A stretch of 64,000 nucleotides of DNA from Eledone cirrhosa. Lineage: Eukaryota. Where the stretch lies: the NCBI GenBank assembly GCA_964016885.1, contig OZ024740.1, forward strand, positions 210,924,001 through 210,988,000, given 5' to 3'. Under the pieces are notes generated by a model. The model was not told the origin of the DNA, searched no databases, and was given only the letters and a program-made list of their open reading frames with translations. Every line of letters starts with the position of its first letter. The first letter of the stretch is position 1. Below are positions 26,535 through 48,138 of the stretch, in pieces. The position numbers and the translations under genes are program-made.

Positions 26535-26973
26535 CGAGTATAACCTAAGATATATATATATATATATATATATTACAGGGACGTTCTTGAAGGTTCAGAT
26601 CACGAATATGTTCGTAAAATACGTCCAGATTACGATTATGTTAATTTTGCATTCTTGTATCCCCGTTCGTTAATACGTTCATTTACTTTCGATCTGTGTG
26701 ATTCAGTATAAGGACGTATAGATAAATAGATATATTTCTTTATTAGCCACAGGGGCACAAAAGAAGGGGACAAGTAAAAAGGGGGAAGTTTACATACAAT
26801 AAAAACGTGTAAAATGTTATCACAAATGGAATTTAAAAAGTTAGTCGATTTTCCCCAATAGAGGGGGACAGTTTATATGGGTAACACATACCCCCGAAAA
26901 AAAATGTGCAACCCTCATCTCCAGGAGTACAAAGAGTTTGTACTCCTTTCCTCTCCTCCTCCTTTTCCTCAAC

Positions 26974-29900
26974 CTACAGGCTGATATAGAGAGAAGGCCC
27001 ATTCACTCGGGCCATTCTCGCCACTTTCACCCACCTTTCATAAAACTTGCTGGGGTACAGCACCTCTCTCTCCATCCTGATTCTTCTTCCAAAGTGGTAT
27101 TTGAAAAAAAGAATCAGTTGTTGGCCGGAGAGAAAGGTGTCTGACCTCAGCCCTTTCAACCTTGTCCACCATACAACCTCTTTCGCCATAGCTATCACAC
27201 AAAGGAAAACCGCCTCTCCTTCGTTTTTGAAGGAGGGTGGCGGTTTGATCATGACAATGGACTCGGTGGTCAACTGGATCGGTCCCACCCGCGACAATAG
27301 TCGTTCTACATAGCCCCACAGGTCAGTGACGCCCGGGCAGTGTATGAATGCGTGCGCGACGGTTTCTTCGTCTCGCACGCACCTCGGACAGATCTTTTTT
27401 GCAGGGTCCCTGCCCGGGCGCCCATGTCTGTAGAGCTTGTCTCGAACTGGTAGAGCTCCTCGGTAGCACTGCCAGGCCAGGGACTTTTGGAAGTTGTCCA
27501 TTGGTCCCGGGCGGAAGGTCCTACCGAAGAGACTGGCCAGTTCATCTTCCTCTACGCCTAGAGTTTCACCGAGCGCGTCGTCGCACTTGCTGCGGACCAA
27601 CCCTCTATAGAATGACGAAGTGGAGTCTCCACTGATCGCCGAGTCCGCCTGCCAGAGGGCTGTGAGCGCCTGAGCACATTCGATGTGCCAGTCGCCCATT
27701 TTCCTCGGTCTTTGCTTGACCCAGGACTGCAGCTCGGTCAGCGAGACGAGTCGTGGGAAGGCTCGCCTCACGAACGGGGCCCACACCGGTTGTCCGGTGA
27801 GGAATACGTAGATTCCACAGTCTGAGCGCGTATTTGCGCATCGTCAACCACGGCATCCCCAGCCCTCCGTTAGAAGGGTGTTGGCAGCAGATGGATCTTC
27901 TCACCAAAGGGGCCCGCCTCTTCCAAAGGAATCGGAAGAGCGCACGCTCCATTTTGGAGAGCGTTTTGGCTGGACAAGGCACGAAGGTCAAGCGGTAGTA
28001 GATGGCGGACGCTATAAAAGTGTTCGCCACCTCCGCTCGACCTTTCAAGGATAGTTTGCACTCGGCCCACTTCTGGGTGAGTGCAAACACTATGGCCGTC
28101 ACTTCGTTCCAGTTCTTCTCCACCTGGAGGTCCGGACCAAACCAGACCCCGAGCAGCTTTACCGGTCCTTCCGTCCAGCGTCCGACGACGCCATCGGAAG
28201 GCATCGGTCTGCCTCTCCACGATCCGAGTTGCAAACCGATGGACTTGTCCCGATTCAGCTTCGCTCCTGTGAGACTTTCGTATTCTTTCAGTAAGGTGCC
28301 GACTTCCTCGATTTGCGAGGCGCTCGACACCATTACTGTCACGTCGTCGGCGTAGGCCGACGCCGCTTTCCGCAGTCCCGGTTCCAGAGGGATGCCCTGC
28401 AATAGCTCCAGCTTCCGCAGTAGTGGCTCGAGAGTCAGTACGTACAGAAGGGAGGAGAGAGGGCATCCCTGTCGAATGGATCGCGTAATATGGAACGGCT
28501 CCGAGAGGTAGCCGTTCACCTTGACCCTTGAGCAGATGTTGCTGTTGTGCATTGCAGCAATCCAGCCCCTGAACACGGGTCCGAAGCCTGCCGCCTCGAG
28601 CACCGCATCCAGGTAACGATGGTCAACCCTATCGAAAGCCTTAGACTGATCCAAGTTGATCAGGGCCCCACCGAAGCCGGGTTTACACCCTACCCTCTCT
28701 ATGATGTATCGCATGAGGTGGAGGTTGTCGTGTATGGACCTGGTCGGGATTGCGCATGTCTGCGCTTCTCCCACCAGGTTCTCGACGACAAGCGCCAGCC
28801 TCTTTGCCAACACCTTGGCCAAAATCTGTAACTCTGTGTTTAGCAGAGTTATGGGCCGGAAGTTGCCTATGTCATCCCCCTTATTCTCGTCCTTCCTGAT
28901 TAGTGTGACCACGCCCCCGGTTACAGAACTGGGAATTCTCCCGTTCTGTTGCCAGTTGCAGTAGACCGCTTCCAGCAGACCGGAGAATAAGTCCGGCATT
29001 GCTACGTAAAATTCGTAGGGTAGACCGTCGAGACCTGTAGATTTGCGTTTGCCGCATTGGCTCAGCGCGTCCCCTATCTCAGTGGCTGAAATCGACTTTT
29101 CGCAGAACTTCGCCTCGCTGTCCGAGAGTCGCGGCAGGCCGCCGAGGTATGGACCGAAATCCATAGCCTCCCCCGGCGCGCCGCTCCCCCCGAACAGCCG
29201 AGCAAAGTGCCGCTGAAAAGCCGCACACATCTTCTTCGGCTCACGTATCACGCGTCTGTTTTGGTCCTTCAAAGACCGAATCGTGGACTTGTTGCCACTT
29301 TTTGCCTCCGTCACTCGGGCCCAGCTAACAGCTTTGGCTCCCTCGTTTCCCAGAGCACGTGTTTTGCTTCTGACAACGCAGCCCTCGTGCTTTGCGTCGA
29401 AGAACTGGTCCAAGGCCGTTCTCGTTGCTAGCACGCTGGCTACGTTGCCACTTCTAATTGCCTCTTCTACTTTATCTACCAGTTCCTTCTCGGTTCTATT
29501 TCTATCTAACGCTAATTCTTTACTAAAAACTATCGAGTCTAATCTAACTGCCCTCTTGAGAGAGTACCACCATCTGTTGTTGACAATGGCCCCTGTCAAG
29601 TGCTGTTTAACTAAAGTGCTAATCCGTCTACTGTAGGCTTTGCTTGTCGGTAACGACAAGTTCAGCTTCCAGTAGCCGGGTCCTTGTCTATGGGTTCTAT
29701 CAAGGTTGGCCATGCAGGTCACTAGTTTGTGATCTGAATAGGCAACCATGAACATTTGTGGACAGCTTAACATGTCCCTATCCTTATTTCTAACTAGAAC
29801 CCTATCTAGGTACGATCTAGATGTTCCGCTACGATTACTCCACGTCCACAGTGGCGCAGTCGGAAAATCTAGTCGATATCTATCGGCCAGGTCAAATCGG

Positions 29901-30410
29901 TCGATTAACTGTTTGAGGCTGTTACACCCCCCTTTATCGGGACATGCTCCCACATAGTCCCAACGTGCATCTAGGATTCCATTCCAGTCCCCCACTAAAA
30001 GCAAGGAGCGGGACGTTCCCAGAAAAGTCTCTAGACGTTTGAAGAAGTCTGGCCGCGGTGTCCCGGATGGGGCATATGCGGCCACCAGCCTGAAGGCTCC
30101 ACCTTCACTACCGTCAACGTCTAGGACCACCAGTCGACCGTCCGGGTCCAGATGTACCGTCTGTGTTACGAGGCCCAGGTGTTTCCGCAGCAAAACGGCA
30201 ACTCCGCCCCCACCCACCCGGTTGACAGAGAGATGCGTAGATCTCAAAGTCATCGAAGGTGGGGGCCAGCTGTCGCTCGCCGTGGATCCTGGACTCGCAA
30301 ATGGCTACCACATCCATACTGTGCGACCTGAGGTCGTTTAAGAGTTTGCCCTGTTTCCAGGGCATCCCCAGGCCGCGTACGTTCACACATCCAACTCTTA
30401 TATTGGCCAT
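26974..30410 (-). pseudogene. E1 ORF2: AP endonuclease, reverse transcriptase and C-terminal zinc finger, two frameshifts (~30200, ~27810)
   Basis: MANIRVGCVNVRGL, LVGDWN, SYLDRVL, YSDHK (APE); NFRPITLLN, LDQSKAFDRVDH, QGCPLS, AYADD (RT); CPRC..ETVAHAFIHC. Confidence 0.93.
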
Positions 30411-30447
30411 GTTGGTGCTGAAAAGTTAAAAGAGGAAAAGAGATCAC

Positions 30448-32358
30448 TCACCCTTCGCCTCCTGGGGACCAGGCCGCACGATTTCCATGGGGGTGTTGGA
30501 GGGGTTGTCTGGATGGGTGGTGGTTTCCGGCGGGGTGGGGACGCAGATGTTTGGTGGGGTGGGGTCTGGTGGGATGGGGGTGTCTGGGGGTGGGGAGGCA
30601 TTTGAGAAGGACGCGGTTGAGTGGTTTCACGCAGGAATTCCCCACATCCTTCTCAAATGTTTCTTTTAGGGACCTATAAGTTTGTATAGGGACCCTAATC
30701 AGTTTTAGGTTCAGTTTTTTGCTATTTTTTATAGAGTGGGCGAAAGTTTTCCCTTCGGTGAAAACCGAAGGGTCGTTCGTGATGGTCTCCATTAGTGTTT
30801 TGTTTTCAGTGTTTATGTAAGTGTAAGTGTAATTTTCTTGTGTTGTGTTTGTTTTTGTCTGTAGTTCTTGTGTGTGCTTTCGTTTTGTTGTAGGTATTTT
30901 GTTTTCAGGAGGTGGGGGTTTTGTTTGTGATATTTTTGTTATTTGTGTTGGTGGTTGTATGTTTGTGGTAGTGTTTGCTGGTTTTTTGCTTTTGTGATGT
31001 CTTTTCTTTCTTTTCGAGCGATGCGGTTCTCCCTCGTCTTCACTGGGTGATGGCGAGATAGCCTCATCTGTTGTATCGTCTGTGTGATTGAGGAGGGATA
31101 TGTCTTGGGGAGCTGTTGTGTCTGTATGTGATTTTGCAGTGGTTTTAGGTGGAGTGGGGTTGGGTGGGACTGTGTTTGTTGTGGTTATTTTTGTGTGTTG
31201 GTGTTGTTGTTGTTGTGGTGGTGTTGGTGGTTGTGTTGTTTTGATGGGTGTCGGCAGAAGAGCCTTTTTTTGGTTCATTAGTTTAGGACAGGAAGCCCTC
31301 AGGTGACCCCTGCTAAAGCAATGGTAACATGAAGGCCGCCTACCCTCAACCGAAAGGTTTATGTAGGTGAGTCCGTCCAGGAGTACACGCTGTGGGATCA
31401 TAGCTATTCGCTCTGGGCTCATTTGCACCAGAACTTCAATGCTAGTCCCATTGAATACATCTCTGGGGGACTTTCCTACTGACAGTATTCTGTCTTCATC
31501 AAAATTGATGAAGCCGCACAGTATCCACCATATGTTCACCTTTGGTGTGACACTTGTGATTCTGATCTTTTGTGTCCTTTTTCCCATGTATGTAGGGAAA
31601 AAGGTGTACAGGTTGGATACAATTGGCGACACAGAGTAATTTTGGGCCGTCAATTGATCCTTCATGAGTACCGAAATACTCCCAAAAAGTTTGCTTCTTT
31701 GAATGAATGCAATATCATTCATTGAATTTTTGAAAACCAGTTCAATTTCGTTCTGTGACAATTGGACTGGTTTTCGGGTAGAATTGGAAACTGTCCTAAA
31801 AACTATCGTTTTGAGAGCAGTTTCCTTACGAATTTCTACCGGAGAATTGATGCTGAAAGCACCATTTTTATCGAAAGTGATATATCTCTTAGCGTCCTTT
31901 AAAAGTTGTTCAGCATTTGTTACGTCGAGATATATCAATTCTTCTTTCTTTTGAACTTTCTCCGCAAAGGAGATTTTTGGTTTCTTTGTGGAATCCGTAT
32001 TGGTGGTGTTGTCATTATTGTTGTTATTCTTGTTGTTATTCTTGTTGTCACCGATGTTGGTATCATCCGTATTTTCCTTGGTGTTGTTGTCTTTGATGCT
32101 GGTGTTATTGGCGTTGTCTTTATTTTTTTCTTTGTTGTTGTTATCATTGTTGCTTTTATCATCATTATTGGTTTTGCTGTTATTTTTGTTGTCATTGAAC
32201 TGTTTGGTGTCATTTGTGTTGTTTGGATATGAATTCGTTTTTTTATTTTCATTTTGTCTTTCCATCTCTATAGTATCTAGTGAAGAAGACGTTGTTGACT
32301 GCGAGCTTTGTAGTCTTACCGCCTCTCCACCACCATTATCGTTGGACGCAGCGTTCAT
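30448..32358 (-). CDS. E1 ORF1, gag-like zinc-knuckle nucleic-acid-binding protein
   Basis: 636-aa ORF with N/D/K-rich N-terminus, CYHCFSRGHLRASC knuckle and P/T/Q-rich linker; homologous to E3 and E6 ORF1; may carry a late frameshift, since homologs end in a PMEIV-type frame. Confidence 0.88.
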   Translation of the reverse strand: MNAASNDNGGGEAVRLQSSQSTTSSSLDTIEMERQNENKKTNSYPNNTNDTKQFNDNKNNSKTNNDDKSNNDNNNKEKNKDNANNTSIKDNNTKENTDDTNIGDNKNNNKNNNNNDNTTNTDSTKKPKISFAEKVQKKEELIYLDVTNAEQLLKDAKRYITFDKNGAFSINSPVEIRKETALKTIVFRTVSNSTRKPVQLSQNEIELVFKNSMNDIAFIQRSKLFGSISVLMKDQLTAQNYSVSPIVSNLYTFFPTYMGKRTQKIRITSVTPKVNIWWILCGFINFDEDRILSVGKSPRDVFNGTSIEVLVQMSPERIAMIPQRVLLDGLTYINLSVEGRRPSCYHCFSRGHLRASCPKLMNQKKALLPTPIKTTQPPTPPQQQQHQHTKITTTNTVPPNPTPPKTTAKSHTDTTAPQDISLLNHTDDTTDEAISPSPSEDEGEPHRSKRKKRHHKSKKPANTTTNIQPPTQITKISQTKPPPPENKIPTTKRKHTQELQTKTNTTQENYTYTYINTENKTLMETITNDPSVFTEGKTFAHSIKNSKKLNLKLIRVPIQTYRSLKETFEKDVGNSCVKPLNRVLLKCLPTPRHPHPTRPHPTKHLRPHPAGNHHPSRQPLQHPHGNRAAWSPGGEG

Positions 32359-32595
32359 AACGTAATCAAAATTTTACAATATTTTTTCCAAGATTCGATG
32401 GAGAAAAATTTTTTAAATGGATATTCCGCCCCTGAAGGAGCGAAAATGAGTTGACCCACCAGCTGAAGGTCCAGACGGGTGGTCAAGTTACACAATGATA
32501 TAAAATTGAACTAAAAACTCACGTTTTTTTCTTACATAAATTAACGGAAACTTCTCCGCGAAGTGACACACGACTGATAGAGAGAGAGATAGATA

Positions 32596-33888
32596 TATTT
32601 CTTTATTAGCCACAGGGGCACAAAAGAAGGGGACAAATACAAAGGGGGGAAGTTTACATACAATAAAAACGTGTAAAATGTTATCACAGATGGAATTTAA
32701 AAGTTAGTCGATTTTCCCCAATAGAGGGAGACAGTTTATATGGGTAACACATACCCCCGAAAAAAAATGTGCAACCCTCATCTCCAGGAGTACGAAGAGC
32801 TTGTACTCCTTTCCTCTCCTCCTCCTTTTCCTCAACCTACAGGGTGATATAGAGAGAAGGCCCATTCACTCGGGCCATTCTCGCCACTTTCACCCACCTT
32901 TCATAAAACTTGCTGGGGTACAGCACCTCTCTCTCCATCCTGATTCTTCTTCCAAAGTGGTATTTGAAAAAAAGAATCAGTTGTTGGCCGGAGAGAAGGG
33001 TGTCTGACCTCAGCCCTTTCAACCTTGTCCACCATACAACCTCTTTCGCCATAGCTATCACACAAAGGAAAACCGCCTCTCCTTCGTTTTTGAAGGAGGG
33101 TGGCGGTTTGATCATGACAATGGACTCGGTAGTCAACCGGATTGGTCCCACCCGCGACAATAGTCGTTCTACATAGCCCCACAGGTTAGTGACGCCCGGG
33201 CAGTGTATGAATGCGTGCGCGACGGTTTCTTCGTCTCGCACGCACCTCGGACAGATCTTTTTTGCAGGGTCCCTGCTCGGGCGCCAATGTCTGTAGAGCT
33301 TGTCTCGAACTGGTAGAGCTCCTCGGTAGCACTGCCAGGCCAGGGACTTTTGGAAGTTGTCCATCGGTCCCGGGCGGAAGGTCCTACCGAAGAGACTGGC
33401 CAGTTCATCTTCCTCTACGCCTAGAGTTTCACCGAGCGCGTCGTCGCACTTGCTGCGGACCAACCCTCTATAGAATGACGAAGTGGAGTCTCCACTGATC
33501 GCCGGGTCCACCTGCCAGAGGGCTGTGAGCGCCTGAGCACATTCGATGTGCCAGTCGCCCATTTTCCTCGGTCTCTGCTTGACCCAGGACTGCAGCTCGG
33601 TCAGCGAGACGAGTCGTGGGAAGGCTCGCCTCACGAACGGGGCCCACACCGGTTGTCCGGTGAGGAATACGTAGAGATGCCGCAGCCTGAGCGCGTGTTT
33701 GCGCATCGTCAACCACGGCATCCCCAGCCCTCCGTTAGAAGGGTGTTGGCAGCAGATGGATCTTCTCACCAAAGGAGCCCGCCTCTTCCAAAGGAATCGG
33801 AAGAGCGCGCGCTCCATTTTGGCGAGCGTTTTGGCTGGACAAGGCACGACGGTCAAGCGGTAGTAGATGGCGGACGCTATAAAAGTGT
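32596..33888 (-). mobile_element. Tx1-type element E2, 5'-truncated (subfamily A)
   Basis: Near-identical to E1 26733-28024; open ORF2 C-terminus 32837-33856; (GATA)n at both ends. Confidence 0.95.
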
Positions 33889-33906
33889 TAGATAGATAGA
33901 TAGATA

Positions 33907-36900
33907 TATTTCTTTATTTACCATAAAGGCATAAAAAGAAGGGACAAATACAAAGGGGGAGTTTACATACAATCGAGTAAAAAGGGTATAACATGAAAAT
34001 AATCGAAAATAACCTCAAAAGGGAGGGGACGTGATGGGGGTTGCACACACCCCCGAAAAAGTGTGCAATCCTTTGCTCGGGGAGCACATGGAGAAGGTGA
34101 TCCCCTCTCCTTTACTTCTTTACCTACAGGATGGTATACAGAGAAGGCCCATTTACACGAGCCATTCTCGCCACTATCACCCACCTTTCATAAAACTGCC
34201 TGTGGCCAAGCACCTCTCTCTCCATTCTTATCCTTCTTCGGAAGTGATATCGGAAGAAGTAGACCAGACTATGGCCAGAGAGGAAGTTGCCTGACCTCAG
34301 ACCTTTCAATCGTGTCCACCAAACAACCTCTTTCAACATGGCTATTACGCACAGAAAAACCGCCTTTGCTTCCTTTGTGAAGAGGGGAGGCGGTTTGATT
34401 GTCATCACGGACTCGGCGGTCAATTGAATCGGCGCCACCCGCGACAGCAGTCGTTCGGCGTAGCCCCACAGATCAGCCACGCCCGGACATTGCACCAATG
34501 CGTGCGCAACGGTTTCTTTGTGACGCATGCATCTAGGGCAAATCTTTTTTGAGGGATCCCTGCCCGGGCGCCCGTGTCTGTAGAGCCTCTCTCGAACGGG
34601 TAGAGCCCCTCGGTAGCACTGTCAGGCCAGTGACTTCTGGAAGTTGTCCATTGGTCCTGGGCCGAAAGTCCTACCGAACAGGCTGGCCAGTTCGTCTTCT
34701 CCCATGTCCAGCGACTCTCCAAGGGTGTCATCGCCCCTGCTAGCCACCAGCCCTCTATAGAATGATGAGGTGGATTCTCCACCGATGGCCTGGCCCGCTT
34801 GCCAGAGAGCCCTGAGCGCCTGAGCACACTCAGTGTGCCAGTCTCCCAGTTTTCCGGATCTTTGCTTGACCCAGGACTGTAGCTCGGTGAGCGAGACGAG
34901 TCTCGGAAAGGCTCGTTTCACGAACGGAGCCCACACCGGTTGACCAGTGAGGAATACCTGTAGGTGCCGTAGCCTTAATGCGTGCCTACGCATCATCAAC
35001 CACGGCATCCCCAGCCCTCCTTTCGAAGGTTGTTGGCAGCAGATGGATCTTCTCACCATAGGAGGGCGCTTCTTCCAAAGAAATTGGAAGAGCATGCGTT
35101 CCATGGTGGTGAGTGTTTCCTTAGGGCAAGGCACGACAGTCAGGCGGTAGTAAGTGACGGACGCTATGTAAATGTTCGCCACCTCCGCCCGGCCTTTTAG
35201 GGACAGCTTACACTTGGCCCATTTCTGGGTTAGTGCAAACACCTTGTTCGTAACCTCCTTCCAGTTCTTTTCCACCTGGAGGTCCGGTCCAAACCAGACC
35301 CCAAGCAACTTTACCGGGCCCTCCGTCCAGTGTCCGACAACACCGTCGGGAGGCATCGGTCTGCCTCTCCACGTTCCGAGTTGCAGCCCGATGGATTTTT
35401 CCCGGTTCAGTTTCGCTCCTGACAACCTTTCGTAATCCTCCAGTAAGGTACCGATCGCCTCGATCTCCGAGTCGGTCGATACCATTACTGTTACGTCATC
35501 GGCGTAGGCCGACACCGCTTTGCTCAATCCTGGTTCCAGGGGGATACCCTGCAACAACTCTAACTTCCTCAGTAAAGGCTCGAGAGTCAATACGTACAGA
35601 AGGGAGGAGAGAGGGCACCCCTGTCGAATGTATCGTGTGATTTCGAACGGCTTCGAAAGGTAGCCGTTCACCTTGAGCCTAGAACAGATGTGGTTGCTAT
35701 GTAAGGCAGTGATCCAGCCTCTGAAAACAGGACCGAACCCAGCCGCCGCTAGCACCGCATCCAGGTAACCATGGTCGACCCTATCGAAGGCCTTAGACTG
35801 ATCCAAGTTAATCAGGGCCCCACCGAAGCCGGGTTTGTTGCCAACCCTCTCTATGATGTATCACATGAGGTGGAGGTTATCGTGAATGGACCTGGATGGG
35901 ATAGCACATGTCTGCGCATCTCCCACCAGGCTACCTACGACAAGCGCCAACCTCTTTGCTAACACCTTGGCCAAAATCTTTAACTCTGTGTTTAGCAGGG
36001 TTATGGGCCGAAAATTATTTATACTATCTCCCTTGTTCTCATCCTTCCTCACCAGCGTGACTACGCCCTTGGCTACAGAACAAGGAATTCTCCCGTTCTG
36101 CTGCCAATTGCAGTAGACCGCTTCGAGGAGTTCGGAGAAGAAGACCGGCATTGCTAAATAAAGTTCGTAAGGTATACCATCGAGACCTGGAGATTTGCGT
36201 CTGCTGCATTGGCTCAGCGCATCTCCGATCTCATCAGCCGAGATTGGTCCCTCGCAGGACTCTGCCTCTTCGTTCGAGAGACGCGGCAGGCCGTCGAGGT
36301 ATGGACCGAAATCCACGTCCCTGCCCAGACCCTCGCCTCCCCCGAACAATCGGGCAAAGTGCCTTTGAAAGGCCTCGCACATCTGCTTAGGCTCCCGGAT
36401 CACCCGTCCATCTTCGTCTTGCAACGACCGGATGGTGGATCGATTTCCACTCTTAGCTTCTGTCACGCGGGCCCAGCCAACGGCTTTGGCCCCCTCATTA
36501 CCTAGAGCACGTATTTTACTTCGAATGACGCAGCCTTCGTAATTTGCATCGAAAAACTGGTTCAAGGCCGTCCTCGATGCCAGCACTCTGGCCACATCTT
36601 CGCTCTTGATTGCCTCTTCTAATTTACCTGTTAATTCTTTCTCGTTTCTATTCCTATCGACAGCTAACATCTTGCTATAACTTATTGATTCTGTTTTAAT
36701 CTCTCTTTTGAGAGATGCCCACCATCGGTTGTTGACGATTGCACCCGTCAACCTCTCCTTAACTAATCTGCTAATCCGGTTTCTGTAAGTCTCTTTTGCC
36801 GGTAAAGACAAATTAAGTTTGCAGTAACCGGGACCCTGTTTATGTGTTTTCTCGAGATTGACTACGCAGGTCACTAATTTGTGATCCGTGTAGCCAACCG

Positions 36901-39725
36901 TGCGCATTTCTGGACAGCTTAATATGTCCCTATCCTTACTTCTAACTAAGAATCTATCTAAGTACGATCTAGATTGACCACTGTGGTTTCTCCAAGTCCA
37001 GGTAGGCACAGTTGGAAAATCTAGTCGATATCTATCGACCAAGTTAAAACGGTCGAGTAACCCCTTGAGGCTGTTACACCCCCCTCTATTAGGACATGCA
37101 CCTGCATAGTCCCAACGTGCATCTAGGATGTCATTCCAATCCCCCGCTAGAAGCAGGGAACGCGACGTTCCCAGAAAAGTCTCTAAACGCTGGAAGAAGT
37201 CGGGCCGTTCAGCTCCGAAAGGGGAGTAGACGGCGACCAGTCTTAAGGCCGCACCTTCACTACTACCAACGTCTAGCACCAACAAACGACCCTCCGGGTC
37301 CGAGTGCACAACCTGTACGGCAAGACCCAGGTGTTTTTGCAGCAGTACGACAACCCCACCCCCACCTCCAGGTTGACAGAGAGATGCATGCACCTCAAAG
37401 TCATCGAAGGTAGGGGCCAGCTGCCGCACGACGGTGATCCGAGTCTCACAGATAACCATTACATTTATACCACATGACCTGAGGTCATTTAGAAGCTTTG
37501 CTTGCTTCCAAGTCGAGCCCAGGCCACGTGCATTCAAACATCCTACTCTTAACACATCCATGTGGGCGGCAGAGCCAAAGGAGAGTGTAGAGACCTACCT
37601 TTCCGCTTCCCGGGTTTCGGGTCGCACGACTTCCATGGGGTCGGGGGTGTTGGGTGAAGGGGTGTCTTGTGGTGGTGTGGGGTCGTCAGTGTGTGGTGGG
37701 GTTGGGGTGTTTGGAGTTGTGTTGGGAGGGGAAGGGGAGGGGGAAAGCTTTTTAGTAGGACGCGGTTTATGGGTTTGACAGAGGGTGGTCCTACGTCCTC
37801 CTTAAAATCCTTTTTTAGTTTTTGGTAGAGGTTCATTGGGATCTTTATTAATTTTAAATGTGGGTAGTTTTCTGAAGAAACAAAGTTTACACCTTCCGTT
37901 TGTACCGAAGGATTATTGTTTATGAGTTCATTTAATTTATTATTGTTTCTGTTGATGTAAGTATAGTGTAATGTCTTTTTTTCGGATGGTGTGAGTGTTT
38001 CGAAGAGGGGAGGGGCAGGTTTGGTTTTGTTTGTTGCTGGAGGGGTGTTTTCTGTTTTGTTGGATTGTGTTGACATTTGGGTGGGGTTGTTTGGCCTTGT
38101 GTGTTTTGCACATGTTTTCTTTTTTTCCTTTTAATCTGTCTGAAGGACTCCGTTTCTTCCTCCGAATTCGTTGGGTTATCTTCAGTGTTGGAGGGAAGAG
38201 GTATGTTTGCTGGTAATGTTTCCGTGTTGGTTTTCTTTGTGGGGGAGATGGTTGTCACTATGTTAGACTGTGTTGTGTGTTGTGTCTGCGGTGGTTGTGT
38301 TGTTTTATTGAGTGAGGGGTTGGGTGGGCCTGTATTTTGTTTTGGGGTAATGTGTTGTGACTGTTTGTGTTGTGGTGGTGGTGTAGTTTTACTGAGGGGC
38401 GGGTTGGATGGGACTGAGTTTTGTTGTTTGTTTATCTGTTGTGGTGGAGCTGCTGTTGGTAGCAGGGTTTTCTTTTTGTTGAGTTGGGGACAAGCGGCCT
38501 TCAGGTGCCCTCTGCCTGCACAGATATGACAGGATGGCCTTCTCCCCTCCACGCTAATGTTTATATACCCGTGGCCCTCTAATAGGATTCTGTCGGGTAT
38601 TTGGGCGATGCGTTCAGGCTTCATTTGCACTACCAGCTCTATACCTGTTCCACTGAACGCATTGCCTGTGGTTTTCCCAATGGAAATCACGTTGTCATTC
38701 ACTGGATCGATGAAGCCAGCTATGAGCCAGCAGTAGTCCACATCTGGCATCATTGCATCCAGCCATATGCGTTGAGTTCTTTTACCCATATAAGATGGAT
38801 AAAAGGTAAAATTTTTCGAACGAATCGGTGACAAAGCACATTTTTTTGCCGCCGATTCGTTCTTCATAATAATTGCTAGGCTTCCATAGAGTCTGTCTTT
38901 TCTTATGAAAGTGGTTTCATTAAGTACTTCTGTGAGTATTGTTTTGATATCTGCTTGAGAAGGCTGTTCAGGTTTTTTTGAAGTGTTGTTGATGGTGCGG
39001 AACACGACCGTTCGACTTTCAATGTCTTTGGTGAGTTCTTGAGGCATTTTAACCGATAAAATACCATTCTCTCCTTCACTTATGTATTGTTTGGCGTCTG
39101 TGATTCTTCGTGCCACATCTGAAATATTTTCGGGTATATATGTCAAAGATTTCTTTGTTTTTTGTGCAAATGAAATCTTGTTGACTCTGTCGTCTGCTTT
39201 GCTTTCTGTTATGTTGTTTTCAAATGTTATTTTTGTGTTTGTTGTGTCTTTGTTTGTGGTATTAATATTGTCATGCAATTTTTCAAATTTTTTTTTTTCG
39301 TTGTTGGAATCCATGTCCAGATTTGTGTTTTCGTCATTTGTCTCCGCAGATTCGTCTGTTTTTATTTTGTTTTTTCCTTCCTTCTCTATGACGTTAGTTG
39401 GGAAGGAAGGGGGGGACTAAAGCGTGCGAGCTTACAATTCTTACCGCTGTCCCCCCCCCCCCCACTGTTTTCGTTCGCTTCGTTTAACATTTCTGTCAGA
39501 CGATTGAAAAATTTTTTTTTTTTTGCCACAAAGTTTTAAAAAACAGGTTTTTCACCTCTAGGAGGGGTAAAGATGAGCTGACCCACCGTCTGACAGTTCA
39601 GACGGGGGGGTCAAGCTACACAATAGTATCAAAATTAAATTTGAACTCACAAAATTTCCGCAATAAATTTGAACAAAACTTCTGCGCGAAGTGAATTACA
39701 TCCACACTGTAGAACAGACGACAGC
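33907..39725 (-). mobile_element. Tx1-type element E3, full length, disrupted (subfamily B)
   Basis: ORF1 pieces 37932-39314 and 37549-38076 (CHICAGRGHLKAAC); ORF2 pieces 35861-37561, 34622-35806, 34124-34528 with APE/RT motifs and premature stops. Confidence 0.95.
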
Positions 39726-39765
39726 TAGATTATGAGAGATAGATAGATAGATAGATAGATAGATA

Positions 39766-42037
39766 TGTTTCTTTTATTTGCCACCAGGGCATCAAAAGTG
39801 TGGGACAAGTACAATGGGGGGAGTTTACAAAACAAGGCGTCCTCAATAAGGAGGAGGCAATAACAATATATAAAAATAAAATAAAATATAACAAAAAATA
39901 AAATTTATAACAAAGTCCTCAATAGAGAGGAGGCGCCTTGGGGGATCGCACACACCCCCGAAAAAAAGTGTGCAACCCTTTTCCTGAGGAGCACAGAGAA
40001 GGGGTGCTCCCTTGGTCTTTCATCTTCCTCACCTATAGTCTGATGTAGAGTGAAGGCCCATTCACACGGGCCATTCTCGCCACTTTCACCCATCTTTCAT
40101 AAAAACGGCTGGGGTGCAGCACCTCTCTCTCCATCCTGATCCTTCTTCCGAAATGATATCGGAAGAAACGGACCAGTTGTTGGCCAGAGAGAAAGGTGTC
40201 TGACCTCAGCCCTTTCAGACGCGTCCACCATACAACCTCTTTCGCCATGGCTATTACGCACAGAAACACCGCCTCTTCTTCGTTTTTGAAGAGGGGAGGC
40301 GGCTTGATCGTTACAATAGACTCGGTGGTCAACCGGATCGGTCCCACCCTTGACAGCAGTTGTTCGACATAGCCCCACAGATCGGCAATGCCCGAGTAGT
40401 GTACCAATGCGTGTGCAACGGTTTCCTCGCCGCACACGCATCTGGGACAGATCTTTTTCGAGGGGTCCCTACCCGGGCGCCCGTGTCTGTAGAGCCTTTC
40501 TCGAACGGGCAGAGCCCTTCTGTAGCATTGCCAGGCCAGGGACCTCTGGAAGTTATCCATGGGTCCCGGGCTGAATGTCCTACCGAACAGGTTGGCCAGT
40601 TCGTCTTCCTCCATGCCTAGGGCTTCTCCGAGGGCATCGTCGCACCTGATAACCACCAGCCCTCTATAGAATGACGAGGTGGATTCTCCACTGACAGCCG
40701 GATCCGCCTGCCAGAGAGCCGTGAGCGCCTGGGCACACTCGGTGTGCCAGGCGCCCAGTTTTCTCGGTCTTTGCTTGACCCAGGATTGCAGCTCGGTGAG
40801 TGAGACGAGCCTGGGAAAGGCTCTCCTCACAAACGGGGCCCACACCAGTTGACCGGAGAGGAATACCTGAAGGTGCCGTAGCCTTAATGCGTGTTTACGT
40901 ATCATTAGCCACGGCATCCCCAGCCCTCCTTTCGAAAGGTGTTGACAGCAGATGGATCTCCTCACCATAGGAGCCCGCTTCTTCCAAAGGAATTGGAAGA
41001 GTGCGCGCTCCATTTTGGCGAGCGTTTCCATTGGGCAAGGCACAACGGTCAGGCGGTAGTAGATGACGGACGCTATATAAGTGTTCGCCACCTCCGCCCG
41101 ACCTTTCAGGGACAGTTTGCACTCGGCCCACTTCTGGGTCAGTGCAAACACCCTGTTCGTCACCTCACCCCAGTTCTTCTCCACCTGGAGGTCTGGTCCG
41201 AACCAGACCCCGAGCAACTTCACCGGGCCCTCCGTCCAACGCCCGACGACGCCATCGGAGGGCATCGATCTGCCCCTCCACGTGCCGAGTTTCAGACCGA
41301 TCGACTTGTCCCGGTTCAGCTTAGCCCCTGTAAACCTTTCGTACTCCTCCAGTAAGGTGCCGATCGCCCCGATTTTCGAGGCCGTCGACACCATTACTGT
41401 TACGTCATCGGCGTAGGCTGACACCGCTTTCCGCAATCCCGGTTCCAACGGGATGCCCTGCAACAACTCCAACTTCCGCAGCAGTGGCTCTAGAGTCATT
41501 ACATACAGAAGGGAGGAGAGAGGGCACCCCTGTCGGATGGACCGCGCGATTTCGAACGGCTCCTAGAGGTAGCCGTTCACCTTGAGCCTAGAGCAGATGC
41601 GGCTGCTGTGCATGGCATTGATCCAGCCCCTGAAAACGGGTCCGAAGCCTGCCGCCGCTAGCACCGCATCCAGGTAACCATGGTCGACCCTATCGAATGC
41701 CTTAGATTGATCCAAGTTGATCAGGGCCCCACCAAAGCCGGGTTCGTTCCCAACCCTCTCTATGATGTATCGCATGAGGTGGAGGTTATCGTGGATCGAC
41801 CTGGACGGGATAGCACATGTCTGCGCATCTCCCACCAGGTTGCCCACGACAAGCGCCAACCTCTTTGCTAGCACCTTGGCCAAATCTGTAACTCTGTATT
41901 TAGCAGAGTTATGGGCCTGAAATTATTTAAATCGTCCCCCTTGTTCTCGTCCTTCCTCACTAGCGTGACTACGCCCTTGGTCACAGCACAGGGAATTCTC
42001 CCGTTCTGTTGCCAGTTGCAGTAGACCGCCTCGAGGA
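39766..42037 (-). mobile_element. Tx1-type element E4, 5'-truncated at the start of RT (subfamily C)
   Basis: ORF pieces 41868-42040, 41563-41883, 40033-41499 with LDQSKAFDRVDH and AYADD; (GATA)n at both ends. Confidence 0.95.
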
Positions 42038-42045
42038 GATCGATC

Positions 42046-42081
<36 letters not shown>

Positions 42082-42172
42082 TGTTTCTTTATTAGCCACT
42101 GGGGCACAAAAGAAGGGGACAAATACAAAGGGGGAAGTTTACATACAATAAAAACGTGTAAAATATTATCAC

Positions 42173-42173
<1 letters not shown>
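42082..42173 (-). mobile_element. Tx1-type element E5, ~90 bp 3' tip (subfamily A-like)
   Basis: Matches the terminal 3' UTR of E1/E2 (TTTCTTTATTAGCCAC.GGGGCACAAAAGAAGGGGACAA...TTATCACAGAT); embedded in (GATA)n. Confidence 0.92.
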
Positions 42174-42213
<40 letters not shown>

Positions 42214-42214
<1 letters not shown>

Positions 42215-45200
42215 CTTTCTATTTATTTGCCACCAGGGCATCAAAGATTGGGACAAGTACAAGAGGGGGAGTTTACATACATTTCAAGCGACGTGTAAAA
42301 ACATAACAAATCAAATTCAACAATCGAAGTCCTCAATAGGGAAGGGGCGTGACGTGGGCGCACACACCCCTTAAAAAAATGTGCAACGTTCTCCTCAGGA
42401 GCACAAAGAGCGGGTGCTCCCTTCCTCTCCTCCTTCCTCTCCTCTCTCACCTACAGGCTGATATAGAGAGAAGGCCCATTCATTCGGGCCATTCTCGCCA
42501 CTTTCACCCACCTTTCATAAAACTTGCTGGGGTAGAGCACCTCTCTCTCCATTCTGGTCCTTCTTCTAAAATGGTACTTGAAAAAAAGGACCAGTTATTG
42601 GCCGGAGAGAAAAGTGTCTGACCTCAGCCCTTTCAACCTCGTCCACCATACAACCTCTTTCGCCATAGCTATCACACAGAGGAAAACCGCTTCTCTTTCG
42701 TTTTTGAAGGGGGGAGGTTTGATCGTCACAATGGACTCGGTGGTCAACCGGATTGGTCCCACCCGCGACAGTAGTCGTTCCACATATCCCCACAGGTCAG
42801 CAACGCCCGGGCAGTGTACGAATGCGTGCGCGACGGTTTCCTCGTCACGCACGCATCTCGGACAGATCTTCTTCGAGGGCTCCCTACCCGGGCGCCCGTG
42901 TCTGTAGAGCTTGTCCCGAACGGGTAGAGCTCCTCGGTAGCACTGCCAAGCCAGGGACTTTTGGAAGTTGTCCATCGATCCCGGGCCAAACGTCCTACCG
43001 AACAGACAGGTTAGCTCGTCTTCCTCCATGCCCAGAGCCTCTCCGAGAGCGTCGTCGCACTTGCTGCGCACCAACCCTCTATAGAATGTTGAGGTTGAGT
43101 TTCCACTGATTGCCGGATCCGCTTGCCAGAGGGCCGTGAGCGCCTGGGCACATTCAATGTGCCAGTCGCCCACATTTCTCGGTATTTGCTTGACCCCGGA
43201 TTGCAACTCGGTGAGTGAGACGAGTCTCGGAAAGGCTCGCCTCACAAAAGGGGCCCACACCGGCTGACCGGTGAGGAATACCTGGAGGTGCCGTAGCCTT
43301 AATGCGTGTCTACGCATCGTCAGCCACGGCATTCCCAGCCCTCCGTTCGAAGGGTGTTGACAGCAGATGGATCTTCTCACCAAAGGGGCCCACTTCTTCC
43401 AAAGGAATCGGAAGAGCGCGCGCTCCATTTTGGCGAGCGTTTTCGCTGGGCAAGGCACGACGGTCAAGCGGTAGTAGATGACGGACGCTATATAAGTGTT
43501 CGCCACCTCCGCTCGACCTTTCAGGGATAGTTTGCACTCGGCCCACTTCTGGGCGAGTGCAAACATCCTGCCCGTTACCTCGTCCCAGTTTTTCTCCACC
43601 TGGAGGTCCGGTCCGAACCAGACCCCGAGCAGCTTCACCGGTCCCTCCGTCCAGCGTCCGACGACGCCGTCGGAGGGCATCAGCTTGCCTCTCCACGTTC
43701 CGAGTTGCAAACCGACGGACTTGTCCCGGTTCAGCTTGGCTCCTATAAACCTTTTGTATTCCTCTAGTAAGGTGCCGATCTTCCCGATTTCCGAGGCGCA
43801 CGATACCATTACTGTCACGTCACCGGCGTAGGCCGACCCCGCTTTCCGCAATCCTGGTTCCAAGGGGATTCCCTGCCACAGCTCCAACTTCCGCAGTAGT
43901 GGCTCGAGAGCCAGCACATACAGAAGGGAGGAGAGAGGGCATCCTGTCGGATGGATCGCGTGATTTGGAACGGCTCCGTTAGGTAGCCGTTCACCTTGAC
44001 CCTCGAGCAGGTGTTGCTGCTGTGCATTGCAGCAATCCAGCCCCTGAAAACGGGTCCGAAGCCTGCCGTCGCGAGCACCGCATCCAGGTACCGATGGTCA
44101 ACCCTATCGAACGCCTTAGATTGATCCAAGTTGATCAGGCTCCCACCAATGCCGGGTTCGTTCCCTACCCTCTCTACGATGTTTCGCATGAGGTCGAGGT
44201 TGTCGTGTATGGACCTGGACGGGATTGCGCATGTCTGCGCTTCTCCCACCAGGTTCCCGACAAGCGCCAACCTCTTCGCTAACACCTTAGCCAAAATCTT
44301 TAACTCTGTGTTTAGCAGAGTTATGGGCCTGAAGTTATCTATGTCATCCCCCTTGTTCTCGTCCTTCCTCACCAGCGTTACTACGCCCTTGGTCACAGAA
44401 CTGGGAATTCTCCCATTCTGTTGCCAGTTGCAGTAGACCGCCTCGAGGAGACCGGAGAACAAGTCCGGCATCGCTACTTAAAGTTCGTATGGTAGACCAT
44501 CGAGACCGTGAGATTTGAGTTTGCCGCATAGGCTCAGCGCTTCCCCTATTTCAGCGGCTGAAATCGGCCTTTCGCAGGACTTCGCCTCCTCGTCCGAGAG
44601 CCGCGGAGGCCGTCGAGGTATGGACCGAAATCCATGGCCTCACCCGGCCCGCCACCCATCCCGAACAGTCGTGCAAAGCGCCATTGAAAGGCCGCGCACA
44701 CCCGCTCAGGTTCAAGGATCACGCGTCTATCCTGGTCCTTCAAAGACCGAATCGTGGACTTGTTTCCGCTTTTTGCCTCTGTCACTCGGGCCCAGCTAAC
44801 AGCTTTGGCTACCTCGTTACCCAGAGCACGTATTTTACTCCTGACAACACAGCCCTCGTTCTTCGCGTCAAAGAACTGGTCTAGGGCCGTTCTTGACGCC
44901 AGAACGCCGGCCACGTTGCCCCTCCTAATCGCCTCTTCTACTCTATCTATCAATTCCCTTTCATTTCTATTCCTATCTGATGCTAATTCCTGACTAAAAC
45001 CTATCGATTCTAATCTAATTTCTCTCTTGAGAGAGCCCCACCACCTACTGTTGACAATTACCCCCGTCAACCGCTGCTTAACTAGAGTGTTAATCCGCTT
45101 AGTGTAAGCTTTGTTTGTCGGTAAGGACAAGTTTAGCTTCCAGTAACCGGGTCCTTGTCTATGGGTTCTATCAAGGTTGAACACTCCGGTCACCAACTTG

Positions 45201-48046
45201 TGATCCGAATAGTCAACCATGAACATTCGTGGACAGCTTAATATGTCCCTATCCTTATTTCTAACTAGGAACCTATCTAGGTACGACCTAGATGTTCCGC
45301 TATGATTAGTCCACGTCCACAGTGGCACAGTCGGAAAAATCTAGTCGATATCTATCGGCCAGATCAAATCGGCCGATTAACCGTTTGAGGCTGTTACACC
45401 CCCTCTATCGGGACATGCCCCTACATAGTCCCAACTTGCATCCAGGATACCATTCCAGTCCCCCACTAAAAGCAAGGAGCGAGACGTTCCCAGAAAAGTC
45501 TCTAGGCGTTGGAAGAAGTCCGGTCGCGGTGTCCCAGATGGGGCATACGCTGCCACTAGCCTGAAGGCTCCACCTTCACTACTGCCTACGTCTAGAACCA
45601 CGAGTCGACCCTCCGGGTCCAGGTGTACCTTCCGTGTTGCGAGGCCCAGGTGTTTTCGCAGCAGATCGACCACCCCGCCCCACACCCGGCTGACAGAGAG
45701 ATGCATAGATCTCAAAGTCGTCGAAGATGGGGGCCAGTTGGTGCTCGCTGCTGATGCTGGACTCGCAAATAGCTATCCATTATGTGCGACCTGAGGTCAT
45801 TTAAGAGTTTGCCCTGCTTCCAAGACATCCCCAGGCCACGCACATTTAAACATCCAACTCTTATAACAGCCATGATGGTGGTGAAGAGTTTAGAGTGGAG
45901 AAAAAGGAAAAGACACCTACTTGTCCTTCTGGACACCAGGCTGCACAATTTCCATGGGGGTATCGGCGGGGTTGTTTGGTGGGGTGGTGGTTTGGGATGT
46001 GGTGGGGACATCAGTGTGTGGTGGGGTGGTGGTTTGGGATGTGGTGAGGACATCAGTGTGTGGTGGGGTGGGGGTGTTTGGTGGAGGAGGGGTGTCTGGG
46101 GTGGTGGTGGGGAAACATTTCAAGAGGACGCGGTTGCTAGGTCTAGTACAGGGGTTCCCCACGTCCTCGGGAAAGTTCTGTTTGAGCATTGCGTAGGTGT
46201 CCCTTGGGACCCTATTCATTTTTAAATTCCTGTTTAGTCGCCGCGTTGGTGAACATTTTCCCTTCGGTTTCCACCGAAGAGTCTTTGTCTATTGTTTGCA
46301 CAAGTGTTTTGTTGTTTGTGTTGATGTATGTATACTGTTTTTGTTGTGTTGTGTTTGTTTTTGTTTGTTGTTCTTGTGTTTGTTTGCGTTTTGTAGTATG
46401 CGTTATGTTTTCGGGAGGGGTGGTTATTTTTCTTTGTGATGTTTGTTCTGTTTGTGCTGGTGGTTGTGTGTTTGTTGCATTTTTGTTAATGTGGTGCCTT
46501 CTTTTCTTTCTTTTTTCAGGTTGAAAGGGTTCTCCCTCGTCGTCACTGTGTGACGTTGATAAGGGGTCCTCGTCCGTGTTGTTGGGGAGAGGTATATTTG
46601 GGGGTTTGTTATGGTTGCTTTTGTATTTGTTTTAGGTGGGGAGGGGTTGGGTGGGACAGTGTCTTGTGTTGTTATTTTTTCGTGTTGTTGTTGTTGTTGT
46701 GGTGGTGGTGGTGGTGGTGGTGGTGGTGGTGGTGGTGGTGGTGGTGGTGGTGGTGGTGGTGGTGGTGGTGGTGTGTGTGGGGTGGGCAGAAGCGTCTTTG
46801 GGGGGGCATTTAAAAGGGGACAGGAAGCCTTCAGGTGACCACTTCTTGAACAGTGGTAGTATGAAGGCCGCCTGCCCTCAACAGAAATGTTTATGAAGGC
46901 GACTCCATCCAGGGACACACGCTGCGGTATTCTTGCTATTCGTTCTGGTCTCATTTGGACCAGAACTTCAAGGCTATTGCCACCGAATACGCCCCCGGTG
47001 GATTCGCCTATCGAAAGGATTGTGTCCTCATCTTCTAAGAATCCCATTAGCACCCACCAAATGCTCGCATTTGGCCTGATGCCCAAGATTCTTATCTTTT
47101 GAGTTCTTTTCCCAAAATATGTGGGGAAAAAGATGTATGCTTTGGATACAATTGGCGACACAGAATATTTCCGTGCCGCCAATTCATCTTGCATTAAAAC
47201 AGATATGCTTCCATATAGTTTCCCTTTCTGTATGAAAGCGATATATTTCCAGGCACTACTTAGGACCAGCTCAATTTCGCTTTGGGACAATTGAGCCGGT
47301 TTCCTAGTCGTGTTCGAAACTGTCCTAAAGATTACAGTCCTGAGGACTGTGTCCCTTCTAATTTCTTCGGGGGAGGTAATTGTGAATTCCCCACCTTCCC
47401 CGAAATTTACACAATTCCTTGCTTCTTTCAGCAATTTCTTGGCATTCGAGATGTCCAGTGCCTTGTATGTCTGCGTTTCTCGGACCGCTTGTGCGAAGAA
47501 GACTGCAGCTGTGGGTCCGTTTTCTTTCGTGTTGTTATCATTGTTGTTGTTGTTATTCGTGTTGGCTTGCTTTTTTCCTTTGTTGGTGTTGTCATTATTG
47601 CTGTTGTTGGTTGTGTTGTTATTGTCATTGTTACTGTTGTTGGTTGTGTTGTTATTGTCATTGTTGTTCTTGTTTGTGTAATTGTTACTTTTGGGGTTTT
47701 CACCCATTTCCACAATTTTTTCTTTTGATTCCGTGGTGTCTTTTGCGGGAGTGAGGAGGGAAGGCTTACAGCGTTGTGCTGCTACCTTCTCTCTATCACT
47801 TTCCTTGCGGGGAGTGGCATGCGTCGTATTAATGGCGTCCATTGTCACTAAACGACTTTTTATCGACAACTTATAACTATTAAATTTCGTCCCTTTTTGG
47901 GGCGAAATTTATTTTACCCAACGTCTGCAGACCCAGGCGAGAGGTTAAACACAACAAATAACAAATTACTTAAGCAGACCTACCGCTTCTCGTAATAAAT
48001 TCTGACAAAATGCAGGAGCGAAACAAAAACACATCTATCTCGGAGA
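42214..48046 (-). mobile_element. Tx1-type element E6, full length, disrupted (subfamily D)
   Basis: ORF1 pieces 46424-47869 and 45917-46219; ORF2 from ~45872 (MAVIRVGCLNVRGL) to 42451 in several frames; mutated knuckle (YYHCSRSGHLKASC) and YAGD. Confidence 0.95.
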
Positions 48047-48138
48047 AGATAGATAGATAGATAGACAGACAAACAGATAGACAGACAGACAGATAGATAG
48101 ATAGATGGATACAGAGATATAGATGTAGATATGTAGAT
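48047..48138. repeat. (GATA)/(GACA) microsatellite forming the 5' outer flank of the Tx1 array
   Basis: Directly visible. Confidence 0.9.

What the first reader, a model, noticed from the sequence alone, without database searches (positions are those of the whole stretch)
26719..48138. 21 kb head-to-tail array of six Tx1-type retrotransposons inside one (GATA)n microsatellite: candidate GATA-specific, self-stacking family
Seen: six co-oriented elements (E1 26733-32575, E2 32596-33888, E3 33907-39725, E4 39766-42037, E5 42082-42173, E6 42214-48046). All five internal junctions (32576-32595, 33889-33906, ~39737-39765, 42038-42081, 42173-42213) and both outer flanks (26719-26732, 48047-48138) are GATA repeats. 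There are no poly(A) tails: each 3' end runs from AATAAA plus a few bases straight into (TATC)n. Units differ in length (90 bp to 5.8 kb), truncation point and subfamily, so they are independent insertions rather than a tandem duplication. No element interrupts the body of another. Known: Tx1-clade APE elements are often sequence-specific (Kibi TC repeats, Koshi TTC repeats, Keno U2, Mutsu 5S, Dewa tRNA spacers). Inference: this is a (TATC)n-specific lineage whose strand-specific nicking fixes orientation and whose insertions regenerate target, producing an interstitial array reminiscent of HeT-A/TART arrays. I know of no described GATA-specific Tx1 family in cephalopods but cannot check this.
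Basis: partly seen in the sequence, partly recalled or inferred. Interest (0 to 1): 0.88.

Follow-up and report, generated by a model that had tools for sequence, protein, structure and literature searches.

The report
GATA-repeat-targeting retrotransposons stacked head-to-tail
Six copies of a jumping gene, likely from an octopus relative, sit head to tail at short GATA repeats, and copies elsewhere in the genome land in the same repeat on the same strand; repeat-seeking jumping genes are known, but this repeat looks like a new target that likely arose from relatives seeking ATT repeats.

Summary
The array is real: six co-oriented L1/Tx1-type retrotransposons of four subfamilies, joined by TATC tracts, each closest to copies elsewhere in the genome. 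TATC repeats lie 5' of 34 of 48 truncated and 71 of 87 full-length copies; GATA on that strand lies 5' of 0 and 1 (background about 0.2% of 40-base windows). 31 informative target-site duplications (median 16 bp) give the site C^TATCTAT. About a third of copies abut a co-oriented neighbour, so six-member stacks are an expected tail, not a special structure. A sister lineage (about 65-71% ORF2 identity, two copies in this window) targets (ATT)n instead. The GATA lineage nests inside it, and fixed differences are enriched in the endonuclease. Microsatellite-specific Tx1 elements are known (Kibi, Koshi, crocodilian families); I found no GATA target in the papers searched, and Repbase/Dfam were not available. 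The scan had already noted this family, including the ATT/GATA contrast, at other loci of this genome. Whether the endonuclease or RNA-DNA pairing picks the site is untested, and this array was not confirmed on reads.

The parts
26719..26732 (.). left outer flank, short degenerate GATA stretch (3' target side of E1)
26733..32575 (-). E1, full-length copy of a young subfamily; ORF1 30448-32373 open (one CCHC knuckle motif read from the sequence), ORF2 in two frames (27605-30304 APE+RT; 26974-27843 zf-RVT)
   Evidence: 98.5% to intact copy L270
32576..32595 (.). E1/E2 junction: TATC units plus the E1-type 5' leader (TATCTCTCTATC on the element strand)
32596..33888 (-). E2, 5'-truncated E1-type copy (1.3 kb)
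33889..33906 (.). E2/E3 junction, (GATA)4
33907..39725 (-). E3, full-length copy of a second subfamily; ORF1 in two pieces, ORF2 with in-frame stops
39726..39765 (.). E3/E4 junction: E3 leader bases plus (GATA)7
39766..42037 (-). E4, 5'-truncated copy of a third subfamily (2.3 kb)
42038..42081 (.). E4/E5 junction, (GATA)9 plus 8 bases
42082..42173 (-). E5, 92-base 3' fragment of the E1-type subfamily; 4-base ATCT microhomology with the tract at its 5' junction
42174..42213 (.). E5/E6 junction, (GATA)10
42214..48046 (-). E6, full-length copy of a fourth, more diverged subfamily; several frame breaks; the loop of its 5' leader hairpin is inverted relative to relatives
48047..48138 (.). right outer flank, mixed GATA/GACA tract (5' target side of E6; first bases belong to the E6 leader)
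48610..49850 (+). 5'-truncated copy of the sister lineage that targets (ATT)n; (ATT)n follows at 49851-49881 and three ATT units lie just upstream
23496..23960 (+). second 5'-truncated copy of the ATT lineage, with (ATT)n on both sides

Best explanation
The six elements are independent copies of an L1/Tx1-type retrotransposon lineage whose copies sit at C^TATC sites of (TATC)n repeats on one fixed strand, and they likely stacked because each insertion duplicates the target beside itself. Shown: two-ORF anatomy with APE, RT and zf-RVT; strand-fixed TATC on both sides; 11-25 bp target-site duplications that start at the element's last base, some running into the 5' end of the neighbouring element. 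Inferred: the APE nicks the GATA strand at GATA^G; the freed end primes reverse transcription at or just after the RNA's ...AAUAAA-GAAAU(A) end, probably helped by pairing with read-through UAUC; a second nick about 16 bp away creates the duplication. One tract thus becomes two, slippage lengthens them, and full-length copies also bring a TATC-like 5' leader. With elements about as numerous as perfect tracts, later copies often land at old junctions. The lineage likely arose once from (ATT)n-targeting relatives through changes concentrated in the endonuclease.
For: 3' flank starts TATC in 99 of 114 copies and TATA in 10. At least 2 TATC units lie in the 40 bp upstream of 34 of 48 truncated copies (GATA 0 of 48; 7 internal breaks set aside first) and 71 of 87 full-length copies (GATA 1 of 87). 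Background: 9 and 13 of 4980 windows in 200 kb of evenly spaced genome. 31 informative TSDs, median 16 bp; in an offset-free search 17 of 25 start exactly at the element end. The base upstream of the nick is C in 21 of 31, against 6.6-10.9 expected for background sites matched on 5-9 downstream bases. TSDs that include a neighbour's first bases (L040, L119, L122) show insertion into existing junctions. Co-oriented neighbour within 200 bp downstream in 35 of 114, none opposite. Sister lineage: ATT repeats 5' of 30 and 3' of 38 of 41 records, TATC in 0; GATA lineage: ATT in 0 of 157. GATA clade nested in ATT lineages (SH-aLRT 99-100; ATT monophyly p-AU 0.010). Fixed differences: 20 of 234 APE columns vs 25 of 654 others (p 0.008; p 0.027 after scaling by within-lineage variation). 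They include sites aligning near L1-EN R155 and the hairpin tip P197, regions implicated in target contact (PMC1950540, passages). Raw RAD reads labelled as the same species show GATA repeats as the main loose end at the 3' terminus.
Against: All loci are top-scoring hits, so they are biased to young, well-preserved copies, and the sets overlap partly. 14 of 48 truncated 5' junctions lack two TATC units, and several clean insertions are at TATA or isolated TATCT sites (L287, L294, L112, L038), so specificity is relaxed. Among 18 TSDs without TATC directly upstream, only 8 have C at -1. The matched null rests on 200 kb holding 3 tracts of 3 or more units. In L1-EN, changing the hairpin tip did not change specificity (PMC1950540), so the loop difference may not be causal. 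The AU test was named after seeing the RT tree. TSDs of the six window copies cannot be resolved inside the repeats. No read evidence for this array: the unique flank had no coverage. Some arrays are homogeneous and look duplicated rather than inserted one by one.
Confidence: 0.8

Rival explanations
1. RNA-guided choice: the endonuclease is a loose AT-rich nickase, and the site is picked by pairing of read-through (UAUC)n or (AUU)n at the RNA 3' end with the nicked strand. The target switch would then be a change of inherited tail, not of protein.
For: AATAAA lies 7-9 bases before the junction, so transcripts should run into the tract (inference). 6 of 25 offset-free TSDs have 3-17 extra TATC-phase bases on the 3' side. 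Some insertions need only TAT(C/A)T. Loop grafts changed L1-EN specificity little (PMC1950540).
Against: The in-phase C and TATC upstream of the nick, where the primer cannot pair, exceed a matched null. No tail swap between lineages was seen in 157 + 41 records. Fixed differences are enriched in the APE.
Confidence: 0.3
2. TATC is only an element-encoded tail; insertion is near random and arrays arise by tandem duplication or unequal exchange.
For: Homogeneous arrays exist: seven ATT-lineage units at C1:423.4 Mb with identical junctions (two units 100% identical) and a three-fold E3+E4 unit at C1:271.1 Mb. Full-length 5' leaders are TATC-like.
Against: Truncated copies, which lack the leader, have TATC 5' in 34 of 48. 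TSDs in unique DNA show no added tail. The window's units belong to four subfamilies 78-85% apart.
Confidence: 0.04
3. The array is an assembly mis-join of dispersed copies at GATA tracts.
For: No reads were shown to span these junctions.
Against: The tracts are only 16-44 bp. Stacks recur on many contigs with TSDs that cross junctions. Short-read contigs of other runs also join element bodies to another 3' end through GATA-like bases (table 5c).
Confidence: 0.05
4. Copies insert widely but survive preferentially in GATA tracts because these are harmless or recombination-poor places.
For: Passive accumulation has been proposed for Drosophila Waldo-A/B near CA repeats (PMC3812793, passage).
Against: The youngest subfamily (12 of 20 full-length copies with unbroken ORF2) already shows it. 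Register and strand are exact, and the sister lineage in the same genome uses a different repeat.
Confidence: 0.04

Closest known systems
Kibi (TC)n and Koshi (TTC)n of teleosts; crocodilian Tx1 families on (TTCC)n/(TTTC)n (PMC4494074 and PMC3812793, passages read)
   Same: Tx1-type APE elements inserted in a microsatellite; related families differ in repeat unit; the paper's 20% flank criterion for target specificity is far exceeded here.
   Different: Target is (TATC)n, with an (ATT)n sister lineage; host is an invertebrate, likely an octopod; copy number likely in the tens of thousands; no sequence of these families was available, so shared ancestry of the targeting is untested.
Keno (U2 snRNA-specific Tx1; PMC4494074 passage)
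   Same: Metagenome relatives L354 and L359 end in poly(A) followed by the 3' part of U2 and fall in the same large group as the window's elements.
   Different: RNA-gene target, poly(A) tail, about 37-38% RT identity.
Dong (TAA)n, Waldo (ACAY)n, Mino (AC)n (PMC3812793 passage)
   Same: Microsatellite-specific non-LTR elements; Dong uses the same repeat as the ATT sister lineage.
   Different: Other clades (R4 and R1, recalled); not related to this lineage beyond the RT.
SINEU-3 / Tx1-Mar tandem insertions (PMC4494074 passage) and Zepp of Chlorella (hit P0086; its self-insertion habit is recalled)
   Same: Tandem copies produced by sequential insertion at a duplicated target.
   Different: Target is a DNA transposon or the element itself, not a microsatellite.
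HeT-A/TART/TAHRE telomeric arrays (search listing only)
   Same: Head-to-tail arrays of mixed full-length and truncated non-LTR elements.
   Different: They are added at chromosome ends and serve as telomeres; this array is interstitial (C1:210.95 Mb of 442.9 Mb), has TSD-type insertion and no shown host role.

Membership tests
L1 group of APE non-LTR retrotransposons | ORF2 with N-terminal APE, RT and C-terminal zinc motif; separate ORF1 | tested here: met
   Pfam Exo_endo_phos, RVT_1 and zf-RVT on intact copy L270 and on window pieces; best solved-structure hit is human L1 ORF2p over residues 7-861, E 6e-51.
L1 group of APE non-LTR retrotransposons | TPRT hallmarks: fixed 3' end, variable 5' truncation, TSDs | tested here: met
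Tx1 clade | RT phylogeny groups with Tx1-clade elements apart from L1 proper | tested here: met
   Groups with U2-inserted elements and vertebrate elements whose gene models carry ZCCHC3-like RNA-binding domains, apart from a Transposase_22-bearing L1 (SH-aLRT 95, 99; quick trees). The references are proxies: no named Tx1L, Kibi, Koshi or Keno sequence was in the tree, and the use of ZCCHC3-like domains as a Tx1 marker is recalled (one search found no paper).
Tx1 clade | ORF1 with RNA-binding domains and CCHC knuckle | tested here: inconclusive
   A CX2CX4HX4C motif is visible in ORF1, but Pfam finds no family in two ORF1s at E 0.1.
Microsatellite-specific Tx1 (Kibi/Koshi type) | More than 20% of flanks in one repeat type (criterion of PMC4494074) | tested here: met
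   71% of truncated and 82% of full-length 5' flanks
Microsatellite-specific Tx1 (Kibi/Koshi type) | Descent from the Kibi/Koshi lineage | not testable with these tools
   No labelled sequences retrieved; Repbase and Dfam not held.
Microsatellite-specific Tx1 (Kibi/Koshi type) | Target (TC)n, (TTC)n, (TTCC)n or (TTTC)n | tested here: not met
   Target is (TATC)n; only isolated copies are followed by (TC)n (L270, L281).
Sequence-specific APE elements (Tx1L, TRAS1, R1Bm) | Endonuclease nicks the target specifically in vitro | not testable with these tools
   needs a bench assay
HeT-A/TART telomeric elements | Terminal location and end-addition without target duplication | tested here: not met
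   mid-contig location; TSDs present
Elements with a 5' self-cleaving ribozyme (R2 type) | Known ribozyme at the 5' end | tested here: inconclusive
   No Rfam ribozyme match at E up to 1 in four loci covering 5' ends; an undescribed one is not excluded.

The most novel reading that the evidence does not exclude
An active octopod Tx1 radiation switched its endonuclease once from (ATT)n to (TATC)n by about 20 substitutions, and now both consumes and manufactures a large share of the genome's GATA microsatellites. The two live lineages would be a ready-made pair for mapping, and re-engineering, APE target recognition, and the switch may predate the split from Argonauta.
Probability: 0.35. Interest if true: 0.72.

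Novelty: new variant of a known kind. Interest (0 to 1): 0.5.

Why it matters
How APE retrotransposons recognise microsatellites is described as poorly understood (PMC3812793). Here two sister lineages about 65-71% identical in ORF2, each with many intact young copies, use different repeats, which makes the endonuclease-versus-RNA question directly testable by domain and tail swaps. It also offers a mechanism linking LINE activity to microsatellite abundance in a large invertebrate genome, and it warns that GATA and ATT marker loci there may often be element junctions. The single six-member array adds little beyond the family-level finding.

Tried and rejected
Rfam search for a 5' ribozyme: only low-complexity miRNA-like matches. 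Named Kibi/Koshi/Keno/Tx1L proteins: none among the listed hits. Metagenome scan for close relatives: best segments at most 40% identical, no GATA-flanked example seen among 80 loci. Search for a third target: the 30 loci examined from a search with an outgroup protein were all ATT-lineage; older or rarer lineages were not sampled, and earlier notes mention GACA. Read support: three contig sets and one RAD run did not cover the unique left flank, so neither the array nor an empty allele was tested. Literature: searches showed no GATA-specific Tx1. Kojima and Fujiwara 2004 was not read (seen only as cited), and the supplements and tree figure of PMC4494074, which list targets of Repbase Tx1 families, could not be seen and may bear on novelty. 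The O. vulgaris repeat paper lists 13 recently active L1-Tx1 families and has no occurrence of 'target' (PMC13282606, part 1 of 3 and term search). Special self-attraction was rejected as unnecessary: a geometric model with neighbour probability 0.21-0.40 and 10,000-30,000 copies expects 3-189 arrays of six or more.

Full report
OBSERVATION. The six units and their junction tracts are at the stated coordinates. They are minus-strand copies of one kind of element in four subfamilies: E1, E2 and E5 are 96-98% alike, and E1, E3, E4 and E6 are 78-85% apart. E1, E3 and E6 are about 5.8 kb; E2, E4 and E5 are 5'-truncated at different points. Each unit's nearest relative among fetched loci lies elsewhere in the genome, so the array is not a local duplication. 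No body is interrupted. None of the six has an unbroken ORF2. The left outer flank is only about three degenerate units, and part of the E1/E2 junction is the element's own leader, so 'one microsatellite' is a simplification.

WHAT THE ELEMENT IS. Intact genomic copies have a 643-codon ORF1 (stop to stop) with a CCHC motif and a 1150-codon ORF2 with APE, RT and zf-RVT. The best solved-structure match is human L1 ORF2p. In quick RT trees the lineage groups with metagenome elements inserted in U2 snRNA, the Keno target, and with vertebrate elements bearing ZCCHC3-like RNA-binding domains, apart from a Transposase_22-bearing L1 (SH-aLRT 95 and 99). I file it as Tx1 clade on these proxies; no named Tx1 reference was in the tree. 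The closest named protein is from Argonauta hians (65%), so the host is likely an octopod (inference). The genome is 3.0 Gb. 3'-end searches gave 806-1607 candidates per subfamily. A C-terminal protein search gave 68,504 candidates for the wider clade. Two GATA-lineage 3' ends were found in 200 kb of evenly spaced DNA, about 10 per Mb with a wide interval of 1-36. 12 of 20 full-length E1-type copies have an unbroken ORF2.

TARGET OR TAIL. I took the top 30 loci of four 3'-end searches, dropped the four window copies and two duplicates of one tandem unit, and scored 114. The 3' flank starts with TATC in 99 and TATA in 10. In 55 the alignment ended inside the locus; 7 were internal breaks, and of the 48 true 5' junctions 34 have at least two TATC units within 40 bp and none has two GATA units. 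Of 87 full-length copies found by their 5' ends, 71 have TATC upstream of the leader and 1 has GATA. Background is 9 and 13 of 4980 windows. 31 TSDs containing non-repeat letters are 11-25 bp, median 16, and give TATCTATC^TATCTAT as the majority site. That search forced the TSD to start at the junction; an offset-free search found 17 of 25 starting there, 6 with 3-17 extra TATC-phase bases and 2 uninterpretable. Specificity is relaxed: clean insertions occur at isolated TATCT and at TATA sites. Poly(A) follows the end in 2 of 157 records. A small stem-loop precedes AATAAA in both lineages, with one compensatory pair change (six sequences, weak).

WHY IT STACKS. A TSD that begins with the target leaves target on both sides, and full-length copies carry a TATC-like leader (26 of 29 E1-type, 27 of 29 E3-type, 26 of 29 E6-type). 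TSDs that include a neighbour's first bases (L040, L119, L122) record insertion into an existing junction. 35 of 114 copies have a co-oriented neighbour within 200 bp downstream and none an opposite one; 35 of 87 full-length copies directly follow another 3' end. Perfect tracts of three or more units were as scarce as elements in the sample (3 in 200 kb, at least one an element tail), so saturation can explain the stacking. A geometric model expects 3-189 arrays of six or more. Other mixed stacks were seen at C2:353.9 Mb and C3:195.4 Mb. A second route exists: near-identical units with identical junctions at C1:423.4 Mb and C1:271.1 Mb look like duplication or assembly repetition.

THE SISTER LINEAGE. 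The related fragments at window 48610-49850 and 23496-23960 end in (ATT)n. Their relatives have (ATT)n on both sides (30 and 38 of 41 records; TATC in none), while 0 of 157 GATA-lineage records have ATT. There are at least three ATT subfamilies, which also stack. ORF2 identity between lineages is 65-71%. The GATA clade nests inside the ATT lineages (SH-aLRT 99-100; ATT monophyly rejected at p-AU 0.010, tested after seeing the RT tree), which points to one switch from ATT to TATC. Fixed differences fall in 20 of 234 APE columns against 25 of 654 others (p 0.008; p 0.027 after scaling by within-lineage variation; three and four representatives). They include Y152/C and the adjacent ACP motif, aligning near L1-EN R155, and S194 against I/M at the hairpin tip, aligning to P197. 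PMC1950540 (passages) implicates both regions in target contact but also found that tip changes did not alter L1-EN specificity. The Argonauta fragment groups with the GATA clade and has the GATA state at 11 of 20 diagnostic sites against 5 for ATT; its target is unknown.

MECHANISM. Most likely the APE nicks the GATA strand at GATA^G, reverse transcription starts at the RNA's end with help from UAUC pairing, and a second nick about 16 bp away gives the TSD (inferred from TPRT as known for L1 and from the junctions). The upstream C (21 of 31 against 6.6-10.9 expected) and upstream TATC (13 against 0.9-7.3) lie where a primer cannot pair, which favours protein recognition. The null is small and stacking inflates upstream TATC, so RNA guidance remains a live rival.

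COMPARISON AND NOVELTY. Microsatellite-specific Tx1 elements are known: Kibi, Koshi and crocodilian families (PMC4494074, PMC3812793; passages), and tandem insertion at a duplicated target is described for SINEU-3. Six searches showed no GATA-specific Tx1, but Repbase, Dfam, the 2004 source paper and the supplements of PMC4494074 were not seen. The scan has noted this family at many other loci of this genome, including an eight-member stack and the ATT/GATA contrast; these are unchecked notes that agree with what I had already measured, and none lies near this window.

LIMITS. Samples are top hits and favour young copies. Reads did not test this array or an empty allele, though short-read contigs show head-to-tail joins of the family and RAD reads show GATA loose ends at the 3' terminus. 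Verdict: real, a new variant of a known kind; the family-level target switch is the valuable part, the array itself an expected outcome. Interest 0.5.

Noticed in passing
window 48030-48053 (E6 5' end): The loop between the CTATCT/AGATAG arms of the E6 leader is inverted relative to the pattern in 26 of 29 relatives, a micro-inversion inside a small hairpin.
   Followed up: partly
L041:150-800: Seven 51-53-base 3'-end fragments of the E1-type subfamily alternate with TATC tracts, like a nascent satellite made from an element end.
   Followed up: partly
G000:C1:423.38-423.42 Mb (L331-L334): Seven ATT-lineage units in tandem with identical (ATT)5 junctions, several with unbroken ORF2; two units are 100% identical. 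Duplication, concatemer insertion or assembly repetition.
   Followed up: partly
L358, L371, L372 (3' ends): Three related metagenome Tx1-like elements end in an A-rich run followed by a sequence resembling the 5' end of U1 snRNA (recalled; no Rfam hit at gathering score there). Possible U1-targeting family.
   Followed up: partly
L354 and L359 (3' ends): The U2 sequence after the poly(A) of these Keno-type relatives begins GTATCTGT, close to the TATCT start of the GATA-lineage target; may be coincidence.
   Followed up: no
L023, L248, L257, L258 (5' flanks): Both lineages insert just behind the same other repeat's 3' end (...CCTAAAGTAGAAACAATT...), so tails of another repeat family seem to supply targets.
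   Followed up: no
window 26318-26455: A very high-copy repeat, likely SINE-like, just left of the array; read depth equals that of the LINE 3' end.
   Followed up: no
window 2963-4240 and 13726-16361: Very long degenerate (TTG)n (1.3 kb) and (AC)n (2.6 kb) tracts.
   Followed up: no
window 12433-12957 (-), 1259-1726 (-), 5230-5302 (+): A frame with a weak C2H2 zinc-finger match, an RT fragment, and a tRNA-Ser-like call that may be a SINE head.
   Followed up: no
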